Program-made: the position numbers and the translations under genes
Part shown: positions 1 through 41,123 of the stretch, piece after piece
How the letters are laid out: every line of letters starts with the position of its first letter
Position numbering within the stretch: the first letter of the stretch is position 1
Notes under the pieces: generated by a model
What the model was told of the DNA's origin: nothing
What the model saw: only the letters and a program-made list of their open reading frames with translations
The model's database searches: none
Origin: the human T2T-CHM13v2.0 reference genome, Homo sapiens
Assembly (NCBI GenBank): GCA_009914755.4
Contig: CP086569.2
Coordinates: 29,344,001 to 29,408,000, forward strand
DNA: 64,000 bases
Reading direction: 5' to 3'

Positions 1-1527
1 CATTATGTATATAATAATATACAGTATCATATATATAATATATATAACCTATGTATAATATTATTTTACATCCTGCATCTTATATTATATATATTGTATA
101 AAATATAATAATTGATAATATATAAGTTTTATATTTATACAATATGACATATAGTATATATTATAATTTATGACATATATAAAATATGTTATATATCATA
201 TATAGAATATATTATACGGTTAATATACGTATTAAATATAAATTATACATTATATATATTATATATAATATATCTGTTATCTATAATACCCATTATGCAT
301 AATATATATATTATGTCTATGTTATATATAGTATAAAACAACATATAATAATATATAATTGTATATATAAAATGCGACCTATAATATATATTATATTTTA
401 TGATATATGTAATATATATTATATATTATATATAATACGTTGTATGTATAATACCTATATTAAATATATATTATATGACTATGTTATTAATTACATGTCA
501 CATATGTTATATATTATATATTTTACATAGAATATACCGGTTACATACAATATATACTATGTAACCTATAATGTATAATTTATTACATGTAAAATAAAGA
601 ATGCAATATATTATGTATAATTTATAATATACAATATGTGGAATGTGATATATATAAGATATAATATATGATATAGGATATACAGTATATGATATATAAC
701 ATACAATATATGATACCTAATATATATGGTATACAATATATATTTTATGATATGTATTCTATATGTTTTATATTCTGTTATATATAACTATTTGAAATTA
801 TATATAACTGTATAATATTTTATGTAAATATGTAATATAATATATATAACTATATAATATATTATATATAACTATATATTATGTTATATATACTTTTATA
901 ACATAATTTACATAAAATATCATAATATAATATATATTATATTATTTCATATTACATAACATATATTTGATATCACCCAATATAAGTAACATACATAATA
1001 TTATAATATAGATTATATTATGTTATATTAAATATCATATATATCATGTATCATATATTATATAATACATATTATACATTATATAATATGTATGTTGTCT
1101 ATTATGTGATATATATAACTATATATATAATTATATTACTATACATATATCCAGATAAACATGTAATTCTACATATTTTCATTTATAATATATAGAATTA
1201 TATAATCATATATAATTATTTATATTCTATAAAAAATTATATCATTATATAAATTATATTATATAAAAATTATAATATGTACTACAAATATATATATTAT
1301 ATATCATATATGATATAGTACCTTTGTTATATATCATAATACATATAAATGTGTATTATGTTATCTATAATTATATAATTTCATATATAAGATGTTTAAT
1401 ATGTATTATATATTATATACGTTATGTAATATATATAGTATACATAAGATGACACAGAATAAATATTATATACTATGACATATAAAATATATGAGGTTAT
1501 ATGTTACATATAAGGCATAGCACATAA

Positions 1528-1848
<321 letters not shown>

Positions 1849-2420
1849 ATATTTTTTAAATGAAAAAAAATTTCAAAGGTACTCTGCTTGGTACAATAAT
1901 CAAATGTATAAACTGAGGAATAAAACATAACCATGAAACCTACTTATAACTGCATATGGAAAATACAGAGGATAATTTTTTAAATAACATATTTTGAAAG
2001 CCTTAACTAGTAATTTGAAGAGTTGGCATTTGAAAGGCCAGTATGAATATACCTTCAAAGCAGCAACACAGGTTCCCCATGAGAAAAAGCAAACTCAGGG
2101 AAAATAAAACCACAAAGGTTCAATCTCTTCTGACCTTTGAAAGACACAGCACAGACAGTGGTCCTTAGGACGAAGAGCAGGAGACCCCTAATTCCGTCAC
2201 CATGGCGATAGGGCATAAACATTGCTGGGTGAGGGCACAATCCACATTGTGAGGTCCAACTGCTGCCAGGAAGACAGGAGTGCTTTTACATAGACCGAAA
2301 GGTCATTGAAGGCTCAGAGTTTTGTTTCAAGAACTGAATCCCAAGCCCACACGTTATTAGGCTGCGCTTCTTAAAACAAGTTATGAGATGGGAAAAAGGG
2401 CACCCACAAACATACGTATA
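1849..2420. other. ~570-bp ordinary-complexity (non-AT, non-Alu) segment of the 2.4-kb unit; origin unidentified. It recurs at about 4267-4838, 6683-7254, 9098-9669 and 11516-12087
   Basis: Balanced base composition and no obvious internal periodicity. It contains the recurrent 61-aa minus-strand ORF from the track, which I judge non-coding. Established descriptions of DYZ2 mention a Y-specific unique portion in addition to the AT-rich stretch and Alu. Confidence 0.6.
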
Positions 2421-12087
<9,667 letters not shown>

Positions 12088-12977
12088 CATTATGTATATA
12101 ATAATATATAGAATCAAATATATAATATATGTAACATATATATATAATACTGTTTTACATCCTGCATTTATATTATATATATTATATGTATTATAATAAC
12201 TGGTAATGTATAAGTATTATATTTATACACTATGACATATAATAATTATATTTTATGACATATATAATATATATTATATATCATATACCAAATATATGGT
12301 TAATGTACGTATTAAGTATATAATATACATTATATATATTATATCTACCTTATATATAACATTCACTATAGTTAATATATATATTATATCTAGTTATATA
12401 TAATATAAAAAAACATATAATAATATATAACTGTATATATAAAATATGACATATAATATATATTATATTTTATGACATATATATGATATGTATTATATAT
12501 TATATATAATACTTTGTATGTATAATACATGTATTAAATATATATTATATGTCTCTGTTATTAATTATAAATAATATATGTTATATATTACATATTTGAT
12601 ATAGGATACACATGTTACATAGAATATATTCTATGTTACATATAACGTAGAATTTATTATATGTAATATAATGTATGTCATATATTATAAATTCCTTATA
12701 ATATACAATATGTGGAGTGTGTTATGTATAACTTGTAATATATGATATATGATATACAATATATGTTATATAACATACAATATATGATACATAATATATA
12801 TGGTATACAATATATATTTTATGATATATATTATATATGTTTTATATTTTATTATATATAACTATTTAAAATTATATATAACTGTATAGTATTATACGTA
12901 AATATATAATATAATACATATAACCATATATTATGTTATATATAATTTTAATACATACTTTCCATAATATATCATAT
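12088..12977. repeat. Diverged partial 6th HSat1B/DYZ2-like unit; only the AT-rich 5' part, truncated at the junction with HSat3
   Basis: It starts with the recognisable unit-start motif (ctatacattatgtatataataatatatagaatc...) and keeps colinear landmarks (tgttttacatcctgcat, tatgacatat). It is far more diverged than units 1-5, and it ends abruptly at 12977 where GGAAT-type sequence begins. Confidence 0.7.
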
Positions 12978-14045
12978 GGACTCCTTTGGAATGGTCTAGT
13001 ATGCAATGCAATCGACTAACAGGGAATTAAAAGGAATGTAATCGAATGGATTGGACTGGAATGCAATGGACTCGAATAGATTGGAAACGGAATGCAAAGG
13101 AATGGAATGGAATAGTATGGAATGGAATGGAAAGGAATGGAATGGAATAGACTAGAGTAGAATGGAATGGACTCGAAAGCAATGGACTGGAATGGAACTT
13201 TCTGGAATGGTCTGGAATCAAACGGAATGGAATGCCATGCAATCAAATAGAATAAAAGAGAATCAAATCCAATCGAATGGATTGGAAAGGAATTGACTCA
13301 AATGGAATGGACTAGAATGAAAGGGAAAGGAATGGAATCTACTGGAATGGACTGTAATGGAATGGAATCGAAGGGGTTGGAATGGAATCGAATGGAATGG
13401 ACTGCAATAGAAAGGATTCGAATGGAATGAAAAAGAATTGAAGGGAATAGAACAGAATGGAATCAAATCGAATGAAATGGAATGGAATAGAAAGGATTCG
13501 AATGGAATGCAATCGAGTGGAATGGAATCGAACGGAATGGAATAAAATGGAAGAAAGCTGGCAAGAAAAGGAATCGAAATGAATGGAGTGTTATGGAACG
13601 GACTCAAAAGGAATTGAATGTAATAGAATGGAGTGGAGTGGACTCGAATATAGTGGACTGGAATGGAATGAAATCACATGGAATGGGAACGAATGGAATG
13701 GAATGGAAAGGAATGGAATCGAATGGAAAGGAATTGAATGGAAGGGAATGAAATTGAATCAACAGGAATGGAAGGGAATAGAATAGACGGTAATGGAATG
13801 GACTCGAATAGAATGGACACGAATGCTCAAATTGAATGGACTCGAATGGAATGGCAACGAAAGGAATGTCATCGAATGGAATTGAATCGATTGGAATGAA
13901 ATCGCATAGAATGGAGTGGAATCAAATGGAATTGAATCGAAAGGAAAGGAAGCGAACGGACTGAAATGAAATGGAATGGAATTGAATGGAAAGTAATGCA
14001 ATGGAATAGAATGGAACGAAATTTCACGGAATGGAATCAAACTGA
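12978..14045 (+). repeat. HSat3 HOR partial edge unit U0 (corresponds to unit offsets ~2375 to end, with a ~90-bp internal deletion)
   Basis: It begins with ggactcctttggaatggtctagtatgcaatgcaatcgact, which in full units lies ~2375 bp into the unit (e.g. 16420). The track ORF 13263-13607 fuses segments that are separate ORFs in full units (16846- and 16284-type), indicating a deletion. Confidence 0.75.
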
Positions 14046-17000
14046 ATGGAATCAAATCAATGGAATCTAATCAAATGGAATGGAAAGGAATTGAATGGAG
14101 TAGATTGGATTGGATGGGATTGGAATGAAATGTACTGGAAAGGACTCGAATTTCATGAAACGGAATGGAATGAATTGGAACGGAATGGACTCGAATGGAA
14201 TGGAATGTCATGGAATGGCATCAAATGGAATGGAATCGAATGCAATGGAATGCTATGGAATGGAATGGAATGCATTGGAATGGAATGTCCTCTAATGGAA
14301 TGGATTCGAGTGGAATGGAATCGAATAAAATGGAGTCGAATGAAATGGAATTGAAAGGAATGGGATCGAATAGAATGGAATATACTGGAATGTAAGGTAA
14401 TGAACTCGAATGTAATTGACTGGAATGGAATGTACATGAATGGAATGTAATCGAATGGAAAGTAATCCAATGGAATAGATTCTAATGCAATAAAATCGAC
14501 TCAGATAGAGTAGAATGTAATGGAATGGAGTGCAGTGCAATGGAATGGAATGGAATGGAATGCAATGGAATGGAATGGAATGGAATGGAATGGAATGGGA
14601 TGGAATGGTATGGAATGGATAGTAATGGACTGGAGTGAAATGGACTGGAAAGGAATGGACTCAAATTGAAAGGGCTCGAAAGGAATGGAGTCAAATGGTA
14701 TGGTCTGGAATGGAATGAACACGAATGTAATGCAATCCAATAGAATGGAATCGAATGGCATGGAATATAAAGAAATGGAATCGAAGAGAATGGAAACAAA
14801 TGGAATGGAATTGACTGGAATGGAATTGAATGGAATGGGAACGAATGGAGTGAAATTGTATGCAGTAGAAAGGAATAGAATGGAATGCAAGCGAAAGGAA
14901 AGGAATGGATTGGAATGGAATGGAATTCATTGGAATGGAAGGGAATGTAGTGTAATGGACAGGCCTGGAATAAAGTGGAATGCTACGGTCTCGAATGGAA
15001 TAAAAATGTATGGAATGGAATGCAATGAAACGGAATCGAATGTCATAGAATGTAATGGAATGCAAAAAAATGGAATCCAAAATCATTGACTGGAAAGGCT
15101 GTGTGTCGAAAGGAATTGACTCCAATGGAATGGAATCGAATGGAATGGAAGTGAATAGAATCGAACTAAATCGAATGGAATGGAATTGATAGGAACGGAA
15201 TGGAAAGGAATGCAATGATTTGGCATGGAATGGAATCGAATGGCATCGAATGGAATGGAATGGAATGCAATGGAATGGAATGTATTAGAATGTAATGAAC
15301 TTTAATGGAATGTACTCGAATGGATTCGACTGGAATGGAATGTTCTGGAAGTGAATGGACTCCAATGGAATGGATTCGAAAGGAATGGAATCATACGGAA
15401 TGGAATCTAATGGAATGGAATTAAATGGAAATGAATCAAATGGAATAGCACGGAATTGAATTGAATGGAATCGAATGCAATGGAATCTAATGAAACGGAA
15501 AGGAAAGGAATGGAATGGAATGGAATGGGCTGGAATGGAAAGGAATCGAAACGAATGGAATGGAATCGAACTGAAGAGACTGGAATGGAATGCACTGGAA
15601 TGGAAGGGAGTGTAATGGAAGGTTCTCGAAAAAAATGGAATCGAATGGAATGGAATTGAATGGAACGGAATAGAGTCGAATGGAATTGAATGGAATGGAA
15701 TGGACTAGAGTGAAATGGAATCGAACCACAAGGAATGGACAGGAATAGAATGGTCTCGAATTGAATGGAATCGTATGGAATGGCATCAAACGGAATGGAA
15801 TTGACAGCCACGGAATGGAATGCACTCGAATGCAATGGAGTCGAAACTAATGGACTGGAATAGAATGGACTCGACTGGTACGGACTCCAATGGAATGGAA
15901 TCGAATGGAAGGGAATCGAACGGAATGGACTCGAAGGGAAAAGACTGCAATGGAAAGGTCTCGAATGGAATGGAAATTAATGGAATGGAATGGAATCGAA
16001 TGAAATGGAGTCAAAAGGAATGGAATCGAATGGCAAGAAATCGAATGTAATGGAATCGCAAGGAATTGATGTGAACGGAATGGAATGGAATGGAATCCAA
16101 AGGAATGGAATAGAATGGAATGGAATCGAATGGAAAGGACTCGAATGGAAATCACTCGAATAGAATGCAATTTAATAAAATAGGATCAAATGTAATGGAA
16201 TGGAATGGAAAGGAATCGAAACGAAAGGAATGGAGACATGGAATGGAATGGAACAGAGAGCAATGGTATAGAATGGAATGGAATCATCTGGAATGGAATT
16301 GAATGGAATGGAATAATATGAAATGGAATGGAATGCAATGGAATGCCCTTGAATTAAATGGACTGGAATGGAATGGACTCGAACAGAGTGGAATGGAAAG
16401 TGTTGAGATAGAATGGAATGGACTCCTTTGGAATGGTGTAGTATGCAATGCAATCGACTGGCAGGGAATCAAAAGGAATGTAATCGAATGGATTGGACTG
16501 GAATGCAATGGACTCGAATAGATTGGAAACGGAATGCAAAGGAATGGAATGGAATAGTATGGAATGGAATGGAAAGGAATGGAGTGGAAGAGACTAGAGT
16601 CAAATGGAATGGACTCGAAAGCAATGGACTGGAATGGAACTTTCTTGAATGGACTGGAATCAAACGGAATGGAATGCAATGCAATCAAATGGCATGGAAT
16701 AAAATAGAATGAAAGGGAATCAAATGGAATTGAATCGAATGGAATCGAATGGATTGGAAAGGAATAGAATGGAATGGAATGGAATTGACTCAAATGGAAT
16801 GGACTAGAATGGAATGGATTCGAATGGAAGGCAAAGGAATGGAATCTATTGGAATGGACTGTAATGGAATGGAATGGAAGGGATTGGAATGCACTCGAAT
16901 GGAATGGACTGCAATAGAAAGGATTCGAATGGAATGAAAAAGAATTGAATGGAATAGAACAGAATGGAATCAAATCGAATGAAATGGAATGGAATAGAAA

Positions 17001-17577
17001 GTAATGGAATGAAATGGAATGGAAAGGATTCGAATGGAATGCAATCGAATGGAATGGAATCGAACGGAATGGAATAAAATGGAAGAAAACTGGAAAGAAA
17101 TGGAATCGAAATGAATGGAGTGTTATGGAACGGACTCAAAAGGAATTGAATGTAATAGAATGGAGAGGAGTGGACTCGAATATAATGGACTGGAATGGAA
17201 TGAAATCACATGGAATGGGAACGAATGGAATGGAATGGAAAGGAATGGAATCGAATGGAAAGGAATCGAATGGAAGGGAATGAAATTGAATCAACAGGAA
17301 TGGAAGGGAATAGAATAGACGGTAATGGAATGGACTCGAATAGAATGGACACGAATGCTCAAATTGAATGGACTCGAATGGAATGGAAACGAAAGGAATG
17401 TCATCGAATGGAATTGAATCGATTGGAATGAAATCGCATAGAATGGAGTGGAATCAAATGGAATTGAATCGAAAGGAAAGGAAGCGAATGGACTGAAATG
17501 AAATAGAATGGAATTGAATGGAAAGTAATGCAATGGAATAGAATGGAACGAAATTTCACGGAATGGAATCAAACTAA
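14046..17577 (+). repeat. HSat3 HOR unit U1 (3532 bp; subtype A)
   Basis: Anchor-to-anchor period. Subtype A is marked by the ...GTNGVKLY... / ...LEWNGIHW... variants in the + frame track peptides. Confidence 0.85.
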
Positions 17578-20500
17578 ATGGAATCAAATCAATGGAATCT
17601 AATCAAATGGAATGGAAAGGAATTGAATGGAGTAGATGGGATTGGATGGGATTGGAATGAAATGTACTGGAAAGGACTCGAATTTCATGAAACGGAATGG
17701 AATGAATTGGAACGGAATGGACTCGAATGGAATGGAATGTCATGGAATGGCATCAAATGGAATGGCATCAAATGGAATGGAATCGACTGCAATGGAATGC
17801 TATGGAATGGAATGGAATGCATTGGAATGGAATGTCCTCGAATGGAATGGATTCGAGTGGAATGGAATCGAATATAATGGAGTCGAATGAAATGGAATTG
17901 AAAGGAATGGGATCGAATACAATGGAATATACTGGAAGGTAATGTAATGAACTCGAATGTAATTGACTGGAATGGAATGTACATGAATGGAATGTAATCC
18001 AATGGAAAGTAATCCAATGGAATAGAATCTAATGCAATAAAATCGACTCAGATAGAGTAGAATGTAATGGAGTGCAGTGCAATGGAATGGAATGGAATGG
18101 AATGCAATGGAATGGAATGGAATGGAATAGAATGGAATGGAAAGGAATGGGATGGAATGGTATGGAATGGATAGTAATGGACTGGAGTGAAATGGACTGG
18201 AAAGGAATGGACTCAAATTGAAAGGGCTCGAAAGGAATGGAGTCAAATGGAATGGTCTGGAATGGAATGAACACGAATGTAATGCAATCCAATAGAATGG
18301 AATCGAATGGCATGGAATATAAAGAAATGGAATCGAAGAGAATGGAAACAAATGGAATGGAATTGAATGGAATGGGAACGAACGGAGTGAAATTGTATGC
18401 AGTAGAAGAGAATAGAATGGAATGCAAGCGAAAGGAAAGGAATGGATTGGAATGGAATGGAATTCATTGGAATGGAAGGGAATGTAGTGTAATGGACAGG
18501 CCTGGAATAAAGTGGAATGCTACGGTCTCGAATGGAATAAAAATGTATGGAATGGAATGCAATGAAACGGAATCGAATGTCATAGAATGTAATGGAATGC
18601 AAAAAAATGGAATCCAAAATCATTGACTGGAAAGGCTGGGTGTCGAAAGGAATTGACTCCAATGGAATGGAATCGAATGGAATGGAAGTGAATAGAATCG
18701 AACTAAATCGAATGGAATGGAATTGATAGGAACGGAATGGAAAGGAATGCAATGATTTGGCATGGAATGGAATCGAATGGCATCGAATGGAATGGAATGG
18801 AATGCAATGGAATGGAATGTATTAGAATGTAATGAACATTAATGGAATGTACTCGAATGGATTCGACTGGAATGGAATGTTCTAGAAGTGAATGGACTCC
18901 AATGGAATGGATTCAAAAGGAATGGAATCCTACGGAATGGCATCTAATGGAATGGAATTAAATGGAAATGAATCAAATGGAATAGCACGGAATTGAATTG
19001 AATGGAATCGAATGCAATGGAATCTAATGAAACGGAAAGGAAAGGAATGGAATGGAATGGAATGGGCTGGAATGGAAAGGAATCGAAACGAATGGAATGG
19101 AATGGAACTGAAGAGACTGGAATGGAATGCACTGGAATGGAAGGGAGTGTAATGGAAGGTTCTCGAAAAAAATGGAATCGAATGGAATGGAATTGAATGG
19201 AACGGAATAGAGTCGAATGGAATTGAATGGAATCGAATGGACTAGAGTGAAATGGAATCGAACCACAAGGAATGGACAGGAATAGAATGGTCTCGAATTG
19301 AATGGAATCGTATGGAATGGCATCAAACGGAATGGAATTGACAGCCACGGAATGGAATGCACTCGAATGCAATGGAGTCGAAACTAATGGACTGGAATAG
19401 AATGGACTCGACTGGTACGGACTCCAATGGAATGGAATCGAATGGAAGGGAATCGAACGGAATGGACTCGAAGGGAAAAGACTGCAATGGAAAGGTCTCG
19501 AATGGAATGGAAATTAATGGAATGGAATGGAATCGAATGAAATGGAGTCAAAAGGAATGGAATCGAATGGCAAGAAATCGAATGTAATGGAATCGCAAGG
19601 AATTGATGTGAACGGAACGGAATGGAATGGAATCCAAAGGAATGGAATAGAATGGAATGGAATCGAATGGAACGGACTCGAATGGAAATCACTCGAATAG
19701 AATGCAATTTAATAAAATAGGATCAAATGTAATGGAATGGAATGGAAAGGAATCGAAACGAAAGGAATGGAGACAGATGGAATGGAATGGAACAGAGAGC
19801 AATGGTATAGAATGGAATGGAATAATCTGGAATGGAATTGAATGGAATGGAATAATATGAAATGGAATGGAATGGAATGGAATGCCCTTGAATTAAATGG
19901 ACTGGAATGGAATGGACTCGAACAGAGTGGAATGGAAAGTGTTGAGATAGAATGGAATGGACTCCTTTGGAATGGTCTAGTATGCAATGCAATCGACTGG
20001 CAGGGAATCAAAAGGAATGTAATCGAATGGATTGGACTGGAATGCAATGGACTCGAATAGATTGGAAACGGAATGCAAAGGAATGGAATGGAATAGTATG
20101 GAATGGAATGGAAAGGAATGGAGTGGAATAGACTAGAGTGGAATGGAATGGACTGGAAAGCAATGGACTGGAATGGAACTTTCTTGAATGGACTGGAATC
20201 AAACGGAATGGAATGCAATGCAATCAAATGGCATGGAATAAAATAGAATGAAAGAGAATCAAATGGAATTGAATCGAATGGAATCGAATGGATTGGAAAG
20301 GAATAGAATGGAATGGAATGGAATTGACTCAAATGGAATGGACTAGAATGGAATGGATTCGAATGGAAGGCAAAGGAATGGAATCTATTGGAATGGACTG
20401 TAATGGAATGGAATGGAAGGGATTGGAATGGACTCGAATGGAATGGACTGCAATAGAAAGGATTCGAATGGAATGAAAAAGAATTGAATGGAATAGAACA

Positions 20501-21131
20501 GAATGGAATCAAATCGAATGAAATGGAATGGAATAGAAAGGAATGGAATGAAATGGAATGGAAAGGATTCGAATGGAATGCAATCGAATGGAATGCAATC
20601 GAACGGAATGGAATCGAACGGAATGGAATAAAATGGAAGAAAACTGGCAAGAAATGGAATCGAAATGAATGGAGTGTTATGGAACGGACTCAAAAGGAAT
20701 TGAATGTAATAGAATGGAGTGGAGTGGACTCGAATATAATGGACTGGAATGGAATGAAATCACATGGAATGGGAACGAATGGAATGGAATCGAAAGGAAT
20801 GGAATCGAATGGAAAGGAATCGAATGGAAGGGAATGAAATTGAATCAACAGGAATGGAAGGGTATAGAATAGACGGTAATGGAATGGACTCGAATAGAAT
20901 GGACACGAATGTTCAAATTGAATGGACTCGAATGGAATGGAAACGAAAGGAATGTCATCGAATGGAATTGAATCGATTGGAATGAAATCGCATAGAATGG
21001 AGTGGAATCAAATGGAATTGAATCGAAAGGAAAGGAAGCGAATGGACTGAAATGAAATGGAATGGAATTGAATGGAAAGTAATGCAATGGAATAGAATGG
21101 AACGAAATTTCACGGAATGGAATCAAACTGA
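17578..21131 (+). repeat. HSat3 HOR unit U2 (3554 bp; subtype A, lacks one 15-bp atggaattgaatgga sub-repeat)
   Basis: Anchor period. The ORF at 18237 is 129 aa versus 134 aa in other units because one MELNG-encoding 15-bp copy is missing. Confidence 0.85.
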
Positions 21132-24100
21132 ATGGAATCAAATCAATGGAATCTGATCAAATGGAATGGAAAGGAATTGAATGGAGTAGATGGGATTGGA
21201 TGGGATTGGAATGAAATGTACTGGAAAAGACTCGAATTTTATGAAACGGAATGGAATGAATTGGAACGGAATGGACTCGAATGGAATGGAATGTCATGGA
21301 ATGGCATCAAATGGAATGGCATCAAATGGAATGGAATCGAATGCAATGGAATGCTATGGAATGGAATGGAATGCATTGGAATGGAATGTCCTCTAATGGA
21401 ATGGATTCGAGTGGAATGGAATCGAATATAATGGAGTCGAATGAAATGGAATTGAAAGGAATGGGATCGAATACAATGGAATATACTGGAATGTAACGTA
21501 ATGAACTCGAATGTAATTGACTGGAATGGAATGTACATGAATGGAATGTAATCGAATGGAAAGTAATCCAATGGAATAGAATCTAATGCAATAAAATCGA
21601 CTCAAATAGAATAGAATGTAATGGAATGGAGTGCAGTGCAATGGAATGGAATGGAATGGAATGCAATGCAATGGAATGTAATGGAATGGAATGGAATGGG
21701 ATGGAATGGTATGGAATGGAAAGTAATGGACTGGAGTGAAATGGACTGGAAAGGAATGGACTCAAATTGAAAGGGCTCGAAAGGAATGGAGTCAAATGGA
21801 ATGGTCTGGAATGGAATGAACACGAATGTAATGCAATCCAATAGAATGGAATCGAATGGCATGGAATATAAAGAAATGGAATCGAAGAGAATGGAAACAA
21901 ATGGAATGGAATTGAATGGAATGGAATTGAATGGAATGGGAAGGAATGGAGTGAAATTGTATGCAGTAGAAGAGAATAGAATGGAATGCAAGCGAAAGGA
22001 AAGGAATGGATTGCAATGGAATGGAATTCATTGGAATGGAAGGGAATGTAGTGTAATGGACAGGCCTGGAATAAAGTGGAATGCTACGGTCTCGAATGGA
22101 ATAAAAATGTATGGAATGGAATGCAATGAAACGGAATCGAATGTCATAGAATGTAATGGAATGCAAAAAAATGGAATCCAAAATCATTGACTGGAAAGGC
22201 TGTGTGTCGAAAGGAATTGACTCCAATGGAATGGAATCGAATGGAATGGAAGTGAATAGAATCGAACTAAATCGAATGGAATGGAATTGATAGGAACGGA
22301 ATGGAAAGGAATGCAATGATTTGGCATGGAATGGAATCGAATGGCATCGAATGGAATGGAATGGAATGCAATGGAATGGAATGTATTAGAATGTAATGAA
22401 CATTAATGGAATGTACTCGAATGGATTCGACTGGAATGGAATGTTCTAGAAGTGAATGGACTCCAATGGAATGGATTCGAAAGGAATGGAAACGAACGGA
22501 ATGGCATCTAATGGAATGGAATTAAATGGAAATGAATCAAATTGAATAGCACGGAATTGAATTGAATGGAATCGAATGCAATGGAATCTAATGAAACGGA
22601 AAGGAAAGGAATGGAATGGAATGGAATGGGCTGGAATGGAATGGAATCGAAACGAATGGAATGGAATCGAACTGAAGAGACTGGAATGGAATGCACTGGA
22701 ATGGAAGGGAGTGTAATGGAAGGTTCTCGAAAAAAATGGAATCGAATGGAATGGAATTGAATGGAACGGAATAGAGTCGAATGGAATTGAATGGAATGGA
22801 ATGGACTAGAGTGAAATGGAATCGAACCACAAGGAATGGACAGGAATAGAATGGTCTCGAATTGAAAGGAATCGTATGGAATGGCATCAAACGGAATGGA
22901 ATGGACAGCCACGGAATGGAATGCACTCGAATGCAATGGAGTCGAAACTAATGGACTGGAATAGAATGGACTCGACTGGTACGGACTCCAATGGAATGGA
23001 ATCGAATGGAAGGGAATCGAACGGAATGGACTCGAAGGGAAAAGACTGCAATGGAAAGGTCTCGAATGGAATGGAAATTAATGGAATGGAATGGAATCGA
23101 ATGAAATGGAGTCAAAAGGAATGGAATCGAATGGCAAGAAATCGAATGGAATGGAATCACAAGGAATTGATGTGAACGGATCGGAATGGAATGGAATCCA
23201 AAGGAATGGAATAGAATGGAATGGAATCGAATGGAAAGGACTCGAATGGAAATCACTCGAATAGAATGCAATTTAATAAAATAGGATCAAATGTAATGGA
23301 ATGGAATGGAAAGGAATCGAAACGAAAGGAATGGAGACAGATGGAATGGAATGGAACAGAGAGCAATGGTATAGAATGGAATGGAATCATCTGGAATGGA
23401 ATTGAATGGAATGGAATAATATGAAATGGAATGGAATGGAATGGAATGCCCTTGAATTAAATGGACTGGAATGGAATGGACTCGAACAGAGTGGAATGGA
23501 AAGTGTTGAAATAGAATGGAATGGACTCCTTTGGAATGGTCTAGTATGCAATGCAATCGACTGGCAGGGAATCAAAAGGAATGTAATCGAATGGATTGGA
23601 CTGGAATGCAAAGGAATGGAATGGAATAGTATGGAATGGAATGGAAAGGAATGGAGTGGAATAGACTAGAGTGGAATGGAATGGACTGGAAAGCAATGGA
23701 CTGGAATGGAACTTTCTTGAATGGACTGGAATCAAACGGAATGGAATGCAATGCAATCAAATGGCATGGAATAAAATAGAATGAAAGTGAATCAAATGGA
23801 ATTGAATCGAATGGAATCGAATGGATTGGAAAGGAATAGAATGGAATGGAATGGAATTGACTCAAATGGAATGGACTAGAATGGAATGGATTCGAATGGA
23901 AGGCAAAGGAATGGAATCTTTTGAAATGGACTGTAATGGAATGGAATGGAAGGGATTGGAATGGACTCGAATGGAATGGACTGCAATAGAAAGGATTCGA
24001 ATGGAATGAAAAAGAATTGAATGGAATAGAACAGAATGGAATCAAATCGAATGAAATGGAATGGAATAGAAAGGAATGGAATGAAATGGAATGGAAAGGA

Positions 24101-24649
24101 TTCGAATGGAATGCAATCGAATGGAATGGAATCGAACGGAATGGAATAAAATGGAAGAAAACTGGCAAGAAATGGAATCGAAATGAATGGAGTGTTATGG
24201 AACGGACTCAAAAGGAATTGAATGTAATAGAATGGAGTGGAGTGGACTCGAATATAATGGACTGGAATGGAATGAAATCACATGGAATGGGAACGAATGG
24301 AACGGAATGGAAAGGAATGGAATCGAATGGAAAGGAATCGAATGGAAGGGAATGAAATTGAATCAACAGGAATGGAAGGGTATAGAATAGACGGTAATGG
24401 AATGGACTCGAATAGAATGGACACGAATGTTCAAATTGAATGGACTCGAATGGAATGGAAACAAAAGGAATGTCATCGAATGGAATTGAATCGATTGGAA
24501 TGAAATCGCATAGAATGGAGTGGAATCAAATGGAATTGAATCGAAAGGAAAGGAAGCGAATGGACTGAAATGAAATGGAATGGAATTGAATGGAAAGTAA
24601 TGCAATGGAATAGAATGGAACGAAATTTCACGGAATGGAATCAAACTGA
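21132..24649 (+). repeat. HSat3 HOR unit U3 (3518 bp; subtype B)
   Basis: Anchor period. Subtype B is marked by the ...GRNGVKLY... / ...LQWNGIHW... variants. Confidence 0.85.
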
Positions 24650-27600
24650 ATGGAATCAAATCAATGGAATCTAATCAAATGGAATGGAAAGGAATTGAAT
24701 GGAGTAGATGGGATTGGATGGGATTGGAATGAAATGTACTGGAAAAGACTCGAATTTTATGAAACGGAATGGAATGAATTGGAACGGAATGGACTCGAAT
24801 GGAATGGAATGTCATGGAATGGCATCAAATGGAATGGCATCAAATGGAATGGAATCGAATGCAATGGAATGCTATGGAATGGAATGGAATGCATTGGAAT
24901 GGAATGTCCTCTAATGGAATGGATTCGAGTGGAATGGAATCGAATATAATGGAGTCGAATGAAATGGAATTGAAAGGAATGGGATCGAATACAATGGAAT
25001 ATACTGGAATGTAACGTAATGAACTCGAATGTAATTGACTGGAATGGAATGTACATGAATGGAATGTAATCGAATGGAAAGTAATCTAATGGAATAGAAT
25101 CTAATGCAATAAAATCGACTCAAATAGAATAGAATGTAATGGAATGGAGTGCAGTGCAATGGAATGGAATGGAATGGAATGCAATGGAATGGAATGTAAT
25201 GGAATGGAATGGAATGGGATGGAATGGTATGGAATGGATAGTAATGGACTGGAGTGAAATGGACTGGAAAGGAATGGACTCAAATTGAAAGGGCTCGAAA
25301 GGAATGGAGTCAAATGGAATGGTCTGGAATGGAATGAACACGAATGTAATGCAATCCAATAGAATGGAATCGAATGGCATGGAATATAAAGAAATGGAAT
25401 CGAAGAGAATGGAAACAAATGGAATGGAATTGAATGGAATGGAATTGAATGGAATGGGAAGGAATGGAGTGAAATTGTATGCAGTAGAAGAGAATAGAAT
25501 GGAATGCAAGCGAAAGGAAAGGAATGGATTGCAATGGAATGGAATTCATTGGAATGGAAGGGAATGTAGTGTAATGGACAGGCCTGGAATAAAGTGGAAT
25601 GCTACGGTCTCGAATGGAATAAAAATGTATGGAACGGAATGCAATGAAACGGAATCGAATGTCATAGAATGTAATGGAATGCAAAAAAATGGAATCCAAA
25701 ATCATTGACTGGAAAGGCTGTGTGTCGAAAGGAATTGACTCCAATGGAATGGAATCGAATGGAATGGAAGTGAATAGAATCGAACTAAATCGAATGCAAT
25801 GGAATTGATAGGAACGGAATGGAAAGGAATGCAATGATTTGGCATGGAATGGAATCGAATGGCATCGAACGGAATGGAATGGAATGCAATGGAATGGAAT
25901 GTATTAGAATGTAATGAACATTAATGGAATGTACTCGAATGGATTCGACTGGAATGGAATGTTCTAGAAGTGAATGGACTCCAATGGAATGGATTCGAAA
26001 GGAATGGAATCGAACGGAATGGCATCTAATGGAATGGAATTAAATGGAAATGAATCAAATTGAATAGCACGGAATTGAATTGAATGGAATCGAATGCAAT
26101 GGAATCTAATGAAACGGAAAGGAAAGAAATGGAATGGAATGGAATGGGCTGGAATGGAATGGAATCGAAACGAATGGAATGGAATCGAACTGAAGAGACT
26201 GGAATGGAATGCACTGGAATGGAAGGGAGTGTAATGGAAGGTTCTCGAAAAAAATGGAATCGAATGGAATGGAATTGAATGGAACGGAATAGAGTCGAAT
26301 GGAATTGAATGGAATGGAATGGACTAGAGTGAAATGGAATCGAACCACAAGGAATGGACAGGAATAGAATGGTCTCGAATTGAAAGGAATCGTATGGAAT
26401 GGCATCAAACGGAATGGAATGGACAGCCACGGAATGGAATGCACTCGAATGCAATGGAGTCGAAACTAATGGACTGGAATAGAATGGACTCGACTGGTAC
26501 GGACTCCAATGGAATGGAATCGAATGGAAGGGAATCGAACGGAATGGACTCGAAGGGAAAAGACTGCAATGGAAAGGTCTCGAATGGAATGGAAATTAAT
26601 GGAATGGAATGGAATCGAATGAAATGGAGTCAAAAGGAATGGAATCGAATGGCAAGAAATCGAATGTAATGGAATCGCAAGGAATTGATGTGAACGGAAC
26701 GGAATGGAATGGAATCCAAAGGAATGGAATAGAATGGAATGGAATCGAATGGAAAGGACTCGAATGGAAATCACTCGAATAGAATGCAATTTAATAAAAT
26801 AGGATCAAATGTAATGGAATGGAATGGAAAGGAATCGAAATGAAAGGAATGCAGACAGATGGAATGGAATGGAACAGAGAGCAATGGTATAGAATGGAAT
26901 GGAATCATCTGGAATGGAATTGAATGGAATGGAATAATATGAAATGGAATGGAATGGAATGGAATGCCCTTGAATTAAATGGACTGGAATGGAATGGACT
27001 CGAACAGAGTGGAATGGAAAGTGTTGAAATAGAATGGAATGGACTCCTTTGGAATGGTCTAGTATGCAATGCAATCGACTGGCAGGGAATCAAAAGGAAT
27101 GTAATCGAATGGATTGGACTGGAATGCAATGGACTCGAATAGATTGGAAACGGAATGCAAAGGAATGGAATGGAATAGTATGGAATGGAATGGAAAGGAA
27201 TGGAGTGGAATAGACTAGAGTGGAATGGAATGGACTGGAAAGCAATGGACTGGAATGGAACATTCTTGAATGGACTGGAATCAAACGGAATGGAATGCAA
27301 TGCAATCAAATGGCATGGAATAAAATAGAATGAAAGAGAATCAAATGGAATTGAATCGAATGGATTGGAAAGGAATAGAATGGAATGGAATGGAATTGAC
27401 TCAAATGGAATGGACTAGAATGGAATGGATTCGAATGGAAGGCAAAGGAATGGAATCTATTGGAATGGACTGTAATGGAATGGAATGGAAGGGATTGGAA
27501 TGGACTCGAATGGAATGGACTGCAATAGAAAGGATTCGAATGGAATGAAAAAGAATTGAATGGAATAGAACAGAATGGAATCAAATCGAATGAAATGGAA

Positions 27601-28188
27601 TGGAATAGAAAGGAATGGAATGAAATGGAATGGAAAGGATTCGAATGGAATGCAATCGAATGGAATGGAATCGAACGGAATGGAATAAAATGGAAGAAAA
27701 CTGGCAAGAAATGGAATCGAAATGAATGGAGTGTTATGGAACGGACTCAAAAGGAATTGAATGTAATAGAATGGAGTGGAGTGGACTCGAATAAAATGGA
27801 CTGGAATGGAATGAAATCACATGGAATGGGAACGAATGGAATGGAATGGAAAGGAATGGAATCGAATGGAAAGGAATCGAATGGAAGGGAATGAAATTGA
27901 ATCAACAGGAATGGAAGGGAATAGAATAGACGGTAATGGAATGGACTCGAATAGAATGGACACGAATGCTCAAATTGAATGGACTCGAATGGAATGGAAA
28001 CGAAAGGAATGTCATCGAATGGAATTGAATCGATTGGAATGAAATCGCGTAGAATGGAGTGGAATCAAATGGAATTGAATCGAAAGGAAAGGAAGCGAAT
28101 GGACTGAAATGAAATGGAATGGAATTGTATGGAAAGTAATGCAATGGAATAGAATGGAACGAAATTTCACGGAATGGAATCAAACTGA
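24650..28188 (+). repeat. HSat3 HOR unit U4 (3539 bp; subtype B)
   Basis: Anchor period. Near-identical to U3 and U5. Confidence 0.85.
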
Positions 28189-31100
28189 ATGGAATCAAAT
28201 CAATGGAATCTAATCAAATGGAATGGAAAGGAATTGAATGGAGTAGATGGGATTGGATGGGATTGGAATGAAATGTACTGGAAAAGACTCGAATTTTATG
28301 AAACGGAATGGAATGAATTAGAACGGAATGGACTCGAATGGAATGGAATGTCATGGAATGGCATCAAATGGAATGGCATCAAATGGAATGGAATCGAATG
28401 CAATGGAATGCTATGGAATGGAATGGAATGCATTGGAATGGAATGTCCTCTAATGGAATGGATTCGAGTGGAATGGAATCGAATATAATGGAGTCGAATG
28501 AAATGGAATTGAAAGGAATGGGATCGAATACAATGGAATATACTGGAATGTAACGTAATGAACTCGAATGTAATTGACTGGAATGGAATGTACATGAATG
28601 GAATGTAATCGAATGGAAAGTAATCCAATGGAATAGAATCTAATGCAATAAAATCGACTCAAAATAATAGAATGTAATGGAATGGAGTGCAGTGCAATGG
28701 AATGGAATGGAATGGAATGCAATGGAATGGAATGTAAGGGAATGGAATGGAATGGGACGGAATGGTATGGAATGGATAGTAATGGACTGGAGTGAAATGG
28801 ACTGGAAAGGAATGGACTCAAATTGAAAGGGCTCGAAAGGAATGGAGTCAAATGGAATGGTCTGGAATGGAATGAACACGAATGTAATGCAATCCAATAG
28901 AATGGAATCGAATGGCATGGAATATAAAGAAATGGAATCGAAGAGAATGGAAACAAATGGAATGGAATTGAATGGAATGGAATTGAATGGATTGGGAAGG
29001 AATGGAGTGAAATTGTATGCAGTAGAAGAGAATAGAATGGAATGCAAGCGAAAGGAAAGGAATGGATTGCAATGGAATGGAATTCATTGGAATGGAAGGG
29101 AATGTAGTGTAATGGACAGGCCTGGAATAAAGTGGAATGCTACGGTCTCGAATGGAATAAAAATGTATGGAATGGAATGCAATGAAACGGAATCGAATGT
29201 CATAGAATGTAATGGAATGCAAAAAAATGGAATCCAAAATCATTGACTGGAAAGGCTGTGTGTCGAAAGGAATTGACTCCAATGGAATGGAATCGAATGG
29301 AATGGAAGTGAATAGAATCGAACTAAATCGAATGGAATGGAATTGATAGGAACGGAATGGAAAGGAATGCAATGATTTGGCATGGAATGGAATCGAATGG
29401 CATCGAATGGAATGGAATGGAATGCAATGGAATGGAATGTATTAGAATGTAATGAACATTAATGGAATGTACTCGAATGGATTCGACTGGAATGGAATGT
29501 TCTAGAAGTGAATGGACTCCAATGGAATGGATTCGAAAGGAATGGAAACGAACGGAATGGCATCTAATGGAATGGAATTAAATGGAAATGAATCAAATTG
29601 AATAGCACGGAATTGAATTGAATGGAATCGAATGCAATGGAATCTAATGAAACGGAAAGGAAAGGAATGGAATGGAATGGAATGGGCTGGAATGGAATGG
29701 AATCGAAAGGAATGGAATGGAATCGAACTGAAGAGACTGGAATGGAATGCACTGGAATGGAAGGGTGTGTAATGGAAGGTTCTCGAAAAAAATGGAATCG
29801 AATGGAATGGAATTGAATGGAACGGAATAGAGTCGAATGGAATTGAATGGAATGGAATGGACTAGAGTGAAATGGAATCGAACCACAAGGAATGGACAGG
29901 AATAGAATGGTCTCGAATTGAAAGGAATCGTATGGAATGGCATCAAACGGAATGGAATGGACAGCCACGGAATGGAATGCACTCGAATGCAATGGAGTCG
30001 AAACTAATGGACTGGAATAGAATGGACTCGACTGGTACGGACTCCAATGGAATGGAATCGAATGGAAGGGAATCGAACGGAATGGACTCGAAGGGAAAAG
30101 TCTGCAATGGAAAGGTCTCGAATGGAATGGAAATTAATGGAATGGAATGGAATCGAATGAAATGGAGTCAAACGGAATGGAATCGAATGGCAAGAAATCG
30201 AATGGAATGGAATCACAAGGAATTGATGTGAACGGAACGGAATGGAATGGAATCCAAAGGAATGGAATAGAATGGAATGGAATCGAATGGAAAGGACTCG
30301 AATGGAAATCACTCAAATAGAATGCAATTTAATAAAATAGGATCAAATGTAATGGAATGGAATGGAAAGGAATCGAAATGAAAGGAATGCAGACAGATGG
30401 AATGGAATGGAACAGAGAGCAATGGTATAGAATGGAATGGAATCATCTGGAATGGAATTGAATGGAATGGAATAATATGAAATGGAATGGAATGGAATGG
30501 AATGCCCTTGAATTAAATGGACTGGAATGGAATGGACTCGAACAGAGTGGAATGGAAAGTGTTGAAATAGAATGGAATGGACTCCTTTGGAATGGTCTAG
30601 TATGCAATGCAATCGACTGGCAGGGAATCAAAAGGAATGTAATCGAATGGATTGGACTGGAATGCAATGGACTCGAATAGATTGGAAACGGAATGCAAAG
30701 GAATGGAATGGAATAGTATGGAATGGAATGGAAAGGAATGGAGTGGAATAGACTAGAGTGGAATGTAATGGACTGGAAAGCAATGGACTGGAATGGAACT
30801 TTCTTGAATGGACTGGAATCAAACGGAATGGAATGCAATGCAATCAAATGGCATGGAATAAAATAGAATGAAAGAGAATCAAATGGAATTGAATCGAATG
30901 GATTGGAAAGGAATAGAATGGAATGGAATGGAATTGACTCAAATGGAATGGACTAGAATGGAATGGATTCGAATGGAAGGCAAAGGAATGGAATCTATTG
31001 GAATGGACTGTAATGGAATGGAATGGAAGGGATTGGAATGGACTCGAATGGAATGGACTGCAATAGAAAGGATTCGAATGGAATGAAAAAGAATTGAATG

Positions 31101-31726
31101 GAATAGAACAGAATGGAATCAAATCGAATGAAATGGAATGGAATAGAAAGGAATGGAATGAAATGGAATGGAAAGGATTCGAATGGAATGCAATCGAATG
31201 GAATGGAATCGAACGGAATGGAATAAAATGGAAGAAAACTGGCAAGAAATGGAATCGAAATGAATGGAGTGTTATGGAACGGACTCAAAAGGAATTGAAT
31301 GTAATAGAATGGAGTGGAGTGGACTCGAATATAATGGACTGGAATGGAATGAAATCACATGGAATGGGAACGAATGGAATGGAATGGAAAGGAATGGAAT
31401 CGAATGGAAAGGAATCGAATGGAAGGGAATGAAATTGAATCAACAGGAATGGAAGGGAATAGAATAGACGGTAATGGAATGGACTCGAATAGAATGGACA
31501 CGAATGCTCAAATTGAATGGACTCGAATGGAATGGAAACGAAAGGAATGTCATCGAATGGAATTGAATCGATTGGAATGAAATCGCATAGAATGGAGTGG
31601 AATCCAATGGAATTGAATCGAAAGGAAAGGAAGCGAATGGACTGAAATGAAATGGAATGGAATTGAATGGAAAGTAATGCAATGGAATAGAATGGAACGA
31701 AATTTCACGGAATGGAATCAAACTGA
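28189..31726 (+). repeat. HSat3 HOR unit U5 (3538 bp; subtype B)
   Basis: Anchor period. Confidence 0.85.
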
Positions 31727-40500: not shown

Positions 40501-41123
40501 TAGAACAGAATGGAATCAAATCGAATGAAATGGAATGGAATAGAAAGGAATGGAATGAAATGGAATGGAAAGGATTCGAATGGAATGCAATCGAATGGAA
40601 TGGAATCGAACGGAATGGAATAAAATGGAAGAAAACTGGCAAGAAATGGAATCGAAATGAATGGAGTGTTATGGAACGGACTCAAAAGGAATTGAATGTA
40701 ATAGAATGGAGTGGAGTGGACTCGAATATACTGGACTGGAATGGAATGAAATCACATGGAATGGGAACGAATGGAATGGAATGGAAAGGAATGGAATCGA
40801 ATGGAAAGGAATCGAATGGAAGGGAATGAAATTGAATCAACAGGAATGGAAGGGAATAGAATAGACGGTAATGGAATGGACTCGAATAGAATGGACACGA
40901 ATGCTCAAATTGAATGGACTCGAATGGAATGGAAACGAAAGGAATGTCATCGAATGGAATTGAATCGATTGGAATGAAATCGCATAGAATGGAGTGGAAT
41001 CCAATGGAATTGAATCGAAAGGAAAGGAAGCGAATGGACTGAAATGAAATGGAATGGAATTGAATGGAAAGTAATGCAATGGAATAGAATGGAACGAAAT
41101 TTCACGGAATGGAATCAAACTGA
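37575..41123 (+). repeat. HSat3 HOR unit U7 (3549 bp; subtype B)
   Basis: Anchor period. Carries the private variant atggaatataatcaaatgg (NIIKW in the track peptide), which is shared with U9. Confidence 0.85.

What the first reader, a model, noticed from the sequence alone, without database searches (positions are those of the whole stretch)
12060..13300. Sharp junction between two unrelated satellite families (HSat1B/DYZ2-like and HSat3/DYZ1-like) at 12977/12978
The 2.4-kb AT-rich + Alu repeat stops mid-unit at 12977, and (GGAAT)n-type sequence starts at 12978 with no transition sequence. The DYZ2-like side ends in a partial unit, and the HSat3 side starts ~2375 bp into its unit. Directly adjacent DYZ2 and DYZ1 blocks are the hallmark organisation of human Yq12. 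This supports a Y-heterochromatin origin and pins down an exact array-to-array breakpoint.
Basis: partly seen in the sequence, partly recalled or inferred. Interest (0 to 1): 0.5.

Follow-up and report, generated by a model that had tools for sequence, protein, structure and literature searches.

The report
Human Yq12 DYZ2–DYZ1 satellite array boundary
This is an ordinary, already described feature of the human Y chromosome long-arm heterochromatin: the point where a block of the 2.4-kb DYZ2 (HSat1B) satellite abuts a block of the 3.5-kb DYZ1 (HSat3A6) satellite, joined base-to-base by an old non-homologous join that exists in more than one copy.

Summary
A 2.4-kb AT-rich/Alu tandem repeat ends mid-unit at 12976, and a GGAAT-type satellite with a 3.5-kb higher-order unit begins at the same base.

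Both sides pass every published or classical criterion I could test:
- **DYZ2/HSat1B (left):** unit length, three-part structure with a ~22% diverged, 5'-truncated Alu, 24% GC, 1 CpG per 147 bp, and 2.1–2.2-kb HaeIII fragments.
- **DYZ1/HSat3A6 (right):** one HaeIII and one EcoRI site per unit. The published HSat3A6-specific 24-mer occurs 11 times, and the 24-mers of 13 other HSat2/3 subfamilies never occur. The DYZ1 sexing primer pair (recalled from memory) gives a 154-bp amplicon in every unit.

"No transition" needs a qualifier. The last 0.9 kb of DYZ2 is a diverged relic (12.7% substitutions, against 2.9% in the GC-rich stretch just before it). The first DYZ1 unit carries three deletions of 30, 35 and 25 nt.

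An independent 1.8-kb metagenome contig spans the same join at 96% identity and shares the relic states and all three deletions. The boundary is therefore an old, duplicated junction module, not an artefact or a private breakpoint.

A Yq12 origin is strongly supported but was not tested by alignment to a Y assembly. Already known; low interest.

The parts
1..11218 (-). Interior of the DYZ2/HSat1B array: one partial unit (1–1551) and four full units (1552–3969, 3970–6385, 6386–8800, 8801–11218). Each unit has an Alu fragment (antisense on the + strand), a GC-rich part of ~565 nt and an AT-rich part of ~1560 nt.
   Evidence: Units are 2415–2418 nt long and 96.6–98.8% identical to each other. The Alu fragment aligns on the minus strand to AluY positions 13–288 at 77–78% identity. 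The AT-rich part is 85.6–85.8% AT. HaeIII fragments are 2141–2189 nt.
11219..12060 (-). Alu and GC-rich part of the last (partial) DYZ2 unit, still homogenised with the array interior.
   Evidence: It is 96–100% identical to the consensus of units 1–4 in 100-nt windows up to about 12018, dropping to 90% in the last window. Over 11819–12060 it has 2.9% substitutions. Between 11824 and 12060 only 1 difference from the consensus is shared with the second junction copy L001.
12061..12976 (-). Relic AT-rich partial DYZ2 unit at the array edge. It is colinear with the AT-rich part of the interior units but strongly diverged.
   Evidence: It has 12.7% substitutions plus 80 gap columns against the interior consensus. 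The adjacent GC-rich part has 2.9% (Fisher p = 1.7e-6). In 173 columns the window and L001 differ from the interior consensus in the same way, against 19 and 13 private differences.
12976..12977 (.). The DYZ2-to-DYZ1 join: 1 nt (A at 12976) is compatible with both sides, and there is no filler.
   Evidence: Side-by-side comparison with 4 interior DYZ2 units and 17 interior DYZ1 phases and the alignment. The identical 66 nt (12952–13017) occur in L001.
12976..16417 (+). First DYZ1/HSat3A6 unit, shortened to 3442 nt. It has deletions of 30, 35 and 25 nt at about 13250/13251, 13288/13289 and 13489/13490, plus a 15-nt deletion near 14186–14270.
   Evidence: It is 97% identical to the interior consensus over the first 200 nt, followed by gaps in multiples of 5. 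The three deletions and 15 substitutions are shared with L001. Overall the unit is about 98% identical to other units, where interior units are 99% or more.
16418..64000 (+). Interior of the DYZ1/HSat3A6 array (GGAAT on the + strand): units of 3504–3564 nt and two variant units of 5848/5849 nt. It runs off the end of the window.
   Evidence: Unit lengths and 97.2–99.8% pairwise identity. One HaeIII and one main EcoRI site per unit. The primer pair gives a 154-bp amplicon in all 13 units carrying the site, from 14826 on. The HSat3A6-specific 24-mer occurs 11 times from 15531 on.

Best explanation
The window comes from the human Y-chromosome long-arm heterochromatin (Yq12). It shows one of the several dozen boundaries where a DYZ2 (HSat1B) array meets a DYZ1 (HSat3A6) array.

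The boundary has no function of its own. It is the scar of an old non-homologous end-to-end join between the AT-rich part of a DYZ2 unit and a point about 1.46 kb downstream of the HaeIII site of a DYZ1 unit.

Large duplications or unequal sister-chromatid exchanges spanning whole blocks then copied that join. Meanwhile, unequal exchange and gene conversion kept homogenising the array interiors. The sequence next to the join has homology on one side only, so it largely escaped homogenisation. That left a 0.9-kb diverged DYZ2 relic and a first DYZ1 unit with pentamer-register deletions.

**Shown here:** the anatomy, the family assignments, the existence of a second diverged copy of the same junction module, and the increase in divergence towards the edge.

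**Inferred:** the mechanism of the original join, propagation by block duplication, and the reason the edge is diverged.
For: **Junction anatomy.**

**DYZ2 criteria.**
- Unit length of 2415–2418 nt.
- Alu fragment covering AluY positions 13–288, 77–78% identical, antisense on the + strand. Alu-derived mir-1268 matches occur once per unit.
- AT-rich part is 85.7% AT.
- GC 23.7% and 1 CpG per 147 bp, against the published 24% and 1 per 150 bp. The three-part unit with a ~20% diverged AluY is described.

**DYZ1 criteria.**
- Period-5 GGAAT array.
- 3.5-kb units with single HaeIII and EcoRI sites.
- GC 38.6% and 1 CpG per 35 bp (compared).
- The HSat3A6-specific 24-mer occurs 11 times; the 24-mers of 13 other subfamilies occur 0 times.
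- The DYZ1 primer pair matches with a 154-bp spacing in each unit.

**Published organisation.** The alternating DYZ1/DYZ2 arrangement of Yq12, duplications spanning several blocks, and more divergent units at array peripheries are all published.

**Old, copied junction.** Contig L001 aligns colinearly across the join at 95.98% identity with 6 gap columns. It shares 173 relic-specific columns and, on the DYZ1 side, three deletions and 15 substitutions. Private differences are roughly balanced: 40 in the window and 28 in L001.

**Edge gradient.** Unit u4 is ~97% identical to the others, where u1–u3 are 98–99% identical to each other. Units r0 and r1 are ~98%, where interior DYZ1 units are 99% or more.
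Against: - No human assembly could be searched, so the Y location rests on family-specific markers and not on an alignment.
- The primer sequences come from my memory and could not be found in the paper library.
- Only one second copy of the junction was recovered, and its source organism and chromosome are unknown. Two scans of genome contigs and two scans of viral contigs found nothing.
- Altemose et al. list a minor chromosome 7 signal for HSat3A6.
- The change in divergence at about 12027–12063 coincides exactly with the GC-rich/AT-rich border. Faster evolution of AT-rich sequence could therefore account for part of it.
Confidence: 0.88

Rival explanations
1. The window is an HSat1B–HSat3 boundary on an acrocentric short arm (for example chr15p), not on the Y.
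For: HSat1B also occurs on acrocentric short arms. On chr15p it lies next to HSat3, with a block of diverged HSat3 between the two. DYZ2 is treated as not Y-specific in the 43-Y study.
Against: The HSat3 here has the ~3.55-kb DYZ1 unit with a single HaeIII site. It carries the HSat3A6 24-mer 11 times. The 24-mers of the acrocentric-enriched subfamilies A1, A2, A4, A5, B2, B3, B4 and B5 are all absent. The composition values match the Yq12 figures to within 1%. A rare Yq12-to-acrocentric translocation carrier would still carry Y-derived sequence.
Confidence: 0.04
2. The junction is a recent, private rearrangement breakpoint (deletion, inversion or sister-chromatid exchange error) specific to this chromosome, not an inherited and copied boundary.
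For: Yq12 shows frequent structural change and sister-chromatid exchange. The join has only 1 nt of microhomology, as end-joining events do.
Against: An independent contig has the same breakpoint, the same relic states and the same three deletions, yet differs by 4% spread evenly along its length. At the pedigree-based rate that includes Yq12, ~2e-7 per bp per generation, human Y lineages about 180,000 years apart should differ by only a few tenths of a percent. The two copies are therefore paralogues of an old junction. The 12.7% divergence of the relic also argues for age.
Confidence: 0.05
3. The junction is an assembly chimera that joins reads from a DYZ2 array and a DYZ1 array.
For: Satellite arrays are prone to misassembly, and the join is abrupt.
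Against: The same join was recovered independently in contig PKQM01000722.1. Both flanks carry edge-specific sequence states that are absent from the array interiors, which a chimera of interior reads would not produce.
Confidence: 0.02

Closest known systems
DYZ2 / HSat1B arrays of human Yq12 (Rhie et al. 2023, 10.1101/2022.12.01.518724; Hallast et al. 2023, 10.1101/2022.12.01.518658)
   Same: ~2.4-kb tandem unit. Composite of an ancient 5'-truncated AluY, a region of more than 85% AT and a GC-rich region. 24% GC and about 1 CpG per 150 bp. Units nearer the array edge are more diverged.
   Different: Units here are 2415–2418 nt, whereas the commonest published length is 2413 nt. The terminal 0.9 kb is a relic with 12.7% substitutions, far beyond the roughly 2% variation reported for most units. 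The passages I read do not describe it at base level.
DYZ1 / HSat3A6 arrays of human Yq12 (Altemose et al. 2014, PMC4022460; Hallast et al. 2023)
   Same: Pentamer-derived satellite with a ~3.5-kb higher-order unit. One HaeIII site per unit. HSat3A6-specific 24-mer present. 38% GC and 1 CpG per 35 bp.
   Different: HaeIII fragments here are 3504–3564 nt, mostly 3537–3550. The commonest published fragment is 3569 nt. Two units are 5848-nt variants carrying a tripled 1142-nt segment.
HSat1B–HSat3 neighbourhood on chr15p (10.64898/2025.12.16.694519)
   Same: The two satellite families are adjacent, and the sequence at the boundary is diverged.
   Different: On chr15p a whole block of diverged HSat3 (~93–95% identical) lies between the arrays, and the HSat3 belongs to other subfamilies. 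Here the HSat3 is HSat3A6 and is already ~97% like the interior within the first 200 nt.
Edges of alpha-satellite higher-order arrays (diverged layers flanking a homogenised core)
   Same: Same logic: the interior is homogenised by unequal exchange, and diverged copies accumulate at the periphery. The 43-Y study draws this parallel for Yq12.
   Different: A different satellite family. Here the diverged zone is under 1 kb on the DYZ2 side, not tens to hundreds of kb.

Membership tests
DYZ2 / HSat1B | Tandem unit of about 2.4 kb (2413–2420 nt published) | tested here: met
   Units are 2415, 2416, 2418 and 2418 nt.
DYZ2 / HSat1B | [quoted passage not shown] | tested here: met
Alu-derived mir-1268 matches occur in every unit. 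The AT-rich part is 85.6–85.8% AT and the GC-rich part is 39.5% GC.
DYZ2 / HSat1B | Base composition of 24% GC and about 1 CpG per 150 bp | tested here: met
   23.7% GC and 1 CpG per 147 bp over 1–12975, compared.
DYZ2 / HSat1B | Classical ~2.1-kb HaeIII fragment (my recollection of the original restriction definition) | tested here: met
   The largest GGCC-to-GGCC fragments in each unit are 2141–2189 nt.
DYZ2 / HSat1B | Match to the curated consensus (Dfam/RepeatMasker HSATI plus Alu, or the published 2420-nt DYZ2 consensus) | not testable with these tools
   No Dfam library, RepeatMasker or consensus sequence was available.
DYZ1 / HSat3A6 | Derived from the CATTC/GGAAT pentamer | tested here: met
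   TRF finds a period-5 GGAAT array starting at 13033. Exact GGAAT covers 33% of the right block.
DYZ1 / HSat3A6 | Higher-order unit of ~3.5–3.6 kb with one HaeIII site (the published virtual digest gives mostly 3569 nt) | tested here: met
   GGCC spacings are 3504–3564 nt in 10 intervals and 5848 nt in 2 variant units.
DYZ1 / HSat3A6 | Presence of the subfamily-specific 24-mer TCGTTTCGATTCCTTTCCATTCCA and absence of the specific 24-mers of other HSat2/3 subfamilies (Altemose 2014, Table 1) | tested here: met
   11 exact matches on the minus strand and 0 matches for each of the 13 other subfamily 24-mers. Only the one example 24-mer per subfamily printed in the paper was available.
DYZ1 / HSat3A6 | Amplifiable by the male-specific DYZ1 primer pair with a 154-bp product (primers recalled from memory; Kogan et al. 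1987) | tested here: met
   13 primer pairs with 0–2 mismatches, each spanning 154 nt, for example 14826–14979. The primer sequences could not be confirmed in the paper library.
DYZ1 / HSat3A6 | Base composition of 38% GC and about 1 CpG per 35 bp | tested here: met
   38.6% GC and 1 CpG per 35.4 bp over 12976–64000, compared.
Human Yq12 heterochromatin | DYZ1 and DYZ2 arrays directly adjacent, with array sizes in the published ranges (DYZ1 at least 50 kb, DYZ2 at least 11 kb) | tested here: met
   At least 13.0 kb of DYZ2 abuts at least 51.0 kb of DYZ1, and both are cut by the window ends.
Human Yq12 heterochromatin | Best alignment to chrY Yq12 in a complete human assembly | not testable with these tools
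   No human genome is in any searchable collection. Scans of metagenome, prokaryote-genome and viral contigs gave a single 1.8-kb contig of unknown source.

The most novel reading that the evidence does not exclude
All, or most, DYZ2-to-DYZ1 boundaries of Yq12 may descend from a single ancestral non-homologous join. In that case the ~1.8-kb junction module (0.9-kb relic DYZ2 remnant, the join, and the thrice-deleted first DYZ1 unit) would be a slowly diverging, block-specific marker. The relic would preserve a state of HSat1B from before the present arrays were homogenised. The ~4% divergence between module copies could then be used to order and date the block duplications that built Yq12, and to anchor reads in an otherwise featureless region.
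Probability: 0.4. Interest if true: 0.3.

Novelty: already known. Interest (0 to 1): 0.15.

Why it matters
**Practical use.** It identifies the window as human Y heterochromatin and gives a base-exact array boundary. Such boundaries are among the few distinctive landmarks in 10–50 Mb of near-identical satellite. They are useful for anchoring long reads, checking assemblies and tracing how blocks were duplicated.

**Biological point.** It is one small, concrete example of how tandem arrays evolve: the interior is homogenised, and the last partial unit next to foreign sequence is left behind.

None of this changes current understanding. The alternating DYZ1/DYZ2 structure, its duplication history and the more divergent array edges have been published since 2023.

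Tried and rejected
- **More junction copies.** Exact-pattern scans of prokaryote genome contigs (two patterns) and viral contigs found nothing. The single metagenome scan gave one contig.
- **Primer provenance.** Full-text searches for both primer strings returned no paper. The only paper matching 'DYZ1 + 154 bp' concerned a different 154-bp amplicon. The primers are therefore marked as recalled from memory.
- **Rfam.** A scan of 1–14000 gave only sub-threshold, Alu-derived mir-1268 matches (33.9 bits against a gathering score of 83). These are a by-product of the Alu fragment, not a gene.
I tried the HaeIII and EcoRI frames on both strands and none gives 2375.
- **A hairpin or cruciform origin of the break.** The AT-rich flank is full of imperfect inverted repeats (44 pairs in 551 nt). 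One is a perfect 17-nt pair, 12866–12882 and 12935–12951, lying 25 nt from the join. I did not compare this with interior units; Rhie et al. report that HSat1B as a whole is enriched in inverted repeats, so I drew no mechanistic conclusion.
- **A window-specific conversion tract.** I considered whether the change in divergence near 12060 marks a gene-conversion tract specific to this window. I rejected this because L001 shows the same change at the same place.

Full report
**1. The observation**

The window changes character within one 1-kb step. Up to 13 kb, GC alternates between about 14% and 39% with no strand skew. From 13 kb to the end, GC is a steady 37–41% with GC skew near +0.56. Offsets between repeated k-mers give a period of 2415–2418 nt on the left and 3549 nt on the right, with variants from 3518 to 3564. 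TRF reports a continuous period-5 GGAAT array from 13033 onward. Exact GGAAT covers 0.4% of the left block and 33% of the right.

I aligned the last left unit to the four full units before it. I also lined up the start of the right block against 17 equivalent phases further along.
- DYZ2-type homology runs through ...CATAATATATCATA and ends at 12976.
- HSat3 homology begins with ATGGACTCCTTTGG at 12976.
- One base is compatible with both sides, and nothing is inserted.

The statement that the left repeat stops mid-unit is also right: 1758 of about 2418 nt are present, and the break lies inside the AT-rich part.

I could not reproduce the '~2375 bp into its unit' figure. The join lies 1456 nt downstream of the unit's HaeIII site on the + strand, about 2081–2093 nt on the other strand, and 1495 nt from the EcoRI site.

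**2. What the two blocks are**

*Left block.* Each 2.4-kb unit has three parts:
- a GC-rich part of about 565 nt;
- an AT-rich part of about 1560 nt that is 85.6–85.8% AT.

Rfam independently finds sub-threshold matches to the Alu-derived mir-1268 family in the same place in every unit.

This is the published description of DYZ2/HSat1B. [quoted passage not shown] Hallast et al. give about 2.4 kb, most often 2413 nt, with a 5'-truncated Alu. Hallast et al. also report 24% GC and 1 CpG per 150 bp for DYZ2. The left block has 23.7% and 1 per 147 bp. The largest HaeIII fragments per unit are 2141–2189 nt, which fits my recollection of the classical '2.1-kb HaeIII' definition of DYZ2.

*Right block.* Units are 3504–3564 nt and 97.2–99.8% identical to each other. 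Each has one HaeIII site and one main EcoRI site. GC is 38.6% with 1 CpG per 35 bp, against the published 38% and 1 per 35 bp for DYZ1.

Altemose et al. 2014 print one subfamily-specific 24-mer for each of 14 HSat2/3 subfamilies. The HSat3A6 (DYZ1, chromosome Y) 24-mer occurs 11 times in the right block. None of the other 13 occurs at all, including the acrocentric-enriched A1, A2, A4, A5 and B2–B5.

The DYZ1 sexing primer pair, as I remember it, matches once per unit with a 154-nt span. The reverse primer overlies the HaeIII site. I could not confirm the primer sequences in the paper library.

*Location.* Directly adjacent DYZ2 and DYZ1 arrays are the published organisation of Yq12: 34–86 alternating arrays per Y, with DYZ1 arrays of at least 50 kb and DYZ2 arrays of at least 11 kb. 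The window holds at least 13.0 kb of DYZ2 and at least 51.0 kb of DYZ1. I conclude that this is a Yq12 DYZ2-to-DYZ1 boundary. The one decisive test, alignment to a complete Y, was not possible with these tools.

**3. The boundary is not quite 'no transition'**

The Alu and GC-rich parts of the last DYZ2 unit (11219 to about 12060) are 96–100% identical to the interior consensus over most of their length. From about 12060 to the join, identity falls to 77–91% per 100 nt. Counted precisely:

| Segment | Substitutions vs interior consensus | Gap columns |
|---|---|---|
| 12061–12976 (AT-rich relic) | 12.7% | 80 |
| 11819–12060 (GC-rich part) | 2.9% | 0 |

The difference is significant (Fisher p = 1.7e-6). 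Interior units do not show this, since the control unit is 93–100% identical in the same windows.

On the DYZ1 side, the first 200 nt are 97% like the interior. Between 13250 and 13490 there are deletions of 30, 35 and 25 nt, all multiples of the pentamer. The first unit is only 3442 nt long.

Both arrays also show a mild gradient. The units nearest the join are about 97–98% identical to the rest. Further in, DYZ2 units are 98–99% and DYZ1 units 99% or more. This matches the published finding that divergent units accumulate at array peripheries.

**4. A second copy of the same junction**

A scan of metagenome contigs for a 21-mer spanning the join returned one contig, PKQM01000722.1 (1841 nt, L001). 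It aligns colinearly to window 11824–13658 at 95.98% identity with only six gap columns. Its 74 differences are spread evenly: 4.6% in the GC-rich part, 3.8% in the relic and 4.1% in the DYZ1 part. They are nearly all substitutions.

Shared and private states tell the story:
- **In the relic:** 173 alignment columns show the window and L001 differing from the interior DYZ2 consensus in the same way, against 19 and 13 private differences.
- **In the preceding GC-rich 237 nt:** only 1 shared difference, against 6 and 5 private (Fisher p = 3e-16).
- **On the DYZ1 side:** all three deletions and 15 substitutions are shared, with 15 and 10 private.

So the breakpoint, the relic, the sharp change in divergence near 12027–12063 and the deletions all predate the split of the two copies. 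This rules out an assembly chimera and a private recent breakpoint.

The two copies are unlikely to be alleles. The pedigree estimate of about 2e-7 substitutions per bp per generation covers the male-specific Y including Yq12. At that rate, Y lineages separated by about 180,000 years should differ by a few tenths of a percent, not 4%. Taken at face value, 4% corresponds to roughly 1e5 generations. This is a rough inference that ignores gene conversion and rate variation. The source of L001 is unknown. Its HSat3 part is DYZ1-like, but too short to include the diagnostic 24-mer.

**5. How it most likely arose (inference)**

1. A single non-homologous join (1 nt of microhomology) fused the AT-rich part of a DYZ2 unit to the middle of a DYZ1 unit.
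2. The join was then copied along with its flanking arrays. The mechanism would be the multi-block tandem duplications and unequal sister-chromatid exchanges documented for Yq12.
3. Within arrays, unequal exchange and conversion keep units alike.
4. The last partial unit has homologous sequence on one side only, so it is rarely included in such events. It keeps an old sequence state while the interior consensus moves on.
5. The pentamer-register deletions in the first DYZ1 unit are what slippage or out-of-register exchange between GGAAT repeats would produce.

One point stays open. The divergence step coincides with the GC-rich/AT-rich border, so faster mutation of AT-rich sequence may contribute. 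That alone seems unlikely to explain 173 shared differences on one side of the border and 1 on the other.

**6. Rivals**

- **An acrocentric (for example chr15p) HSat1B–HSat3 boundary.** This is the serious alternative, since those families are neighbours there too. The HSat3A6 markers and the 3.55-kb unit argue against it.
- **Private rearrangement or assembly chimera.** Both are contradicted by L001.

**7. Novelty and verdict**

It describes a structure published in 2023 for T2T-Y and 43 other Y assemblies, of which each Y carries dozens. The passages I read do not spell out the base-level anatomy of the junction module or its existence as diverged paralogues. These are details within a known picture. 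Interest is low.

Noticed in passing
window 30577-49361: A two-unit segment of the DYZ1 array (one 3539-nt unit plus one 5848-nt variant unit) is tandemly duplicated. 30577–39963 and 39964–49361 are 99.6% identical over 9.4 kb, which explains the 9397-nt k-mer periodicity.
   Followed up: partly
window ~33780-37270 and ~43180-46670: Inside each of the two 5848-nt variant DYZ1 units, a 1142-nt segment is present in three tandem copies instead of one. In the register tested, adjacent copies were 99.0% and 93% identical. This lengthens the unit by about 2.3 kb.
   Followed up: partly
window 60008-63511: One interior DYZ1 unit is shorter (3504 nt) and more diverged (97.2–97.9% to the others, where neighbours are 99% or more). 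It has 30-nt and 15-nt deletions, and it carries the variant of the forward primer site also seen in the first unit.
   Followed up: no
window 1655-1721, 4073-4139, 6489-6555, 8904-8970, 11322-11388 (minus strand): Sub-threshold Rfam matches to the mir-1268 precursor (33.9 bits; the gathering score is 83) occur once per DYZ2 unit. They lie inside the Alu fragment and most likely only reflect the Alu origin of that miRNA family.
   Followed up: partly
window 42190; 11219-12060: Restriction-site polymorphism among units. One DYZ1 unit has an extra HaeIII site at 42190. The last DYZ2 unit has only two GGCC sites (11474, 11499), where the full units before it have three or four.
   Followed up: no
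L001 (PKQM01000722.1) 1-1841: A contig deposited as metagenome sequence is human-type DYZ2/DYZ1 junction sequence. This is presumably host contamination of the kind reported for HSat1B/HSat3 in microbial databases (Rhie et al.).
   Followed up: partly
window 12866-12882 and 12935-12951: A perfect 17-nt inverted repeat (TTAAAATTATATATAAC / GTTATATATAATTTTAA) lies 25 nt to the left of the join, within a flank dense in imperfect AT-rich palindromes. I did not establish whether it has any link to the original break.
   Followed up: no
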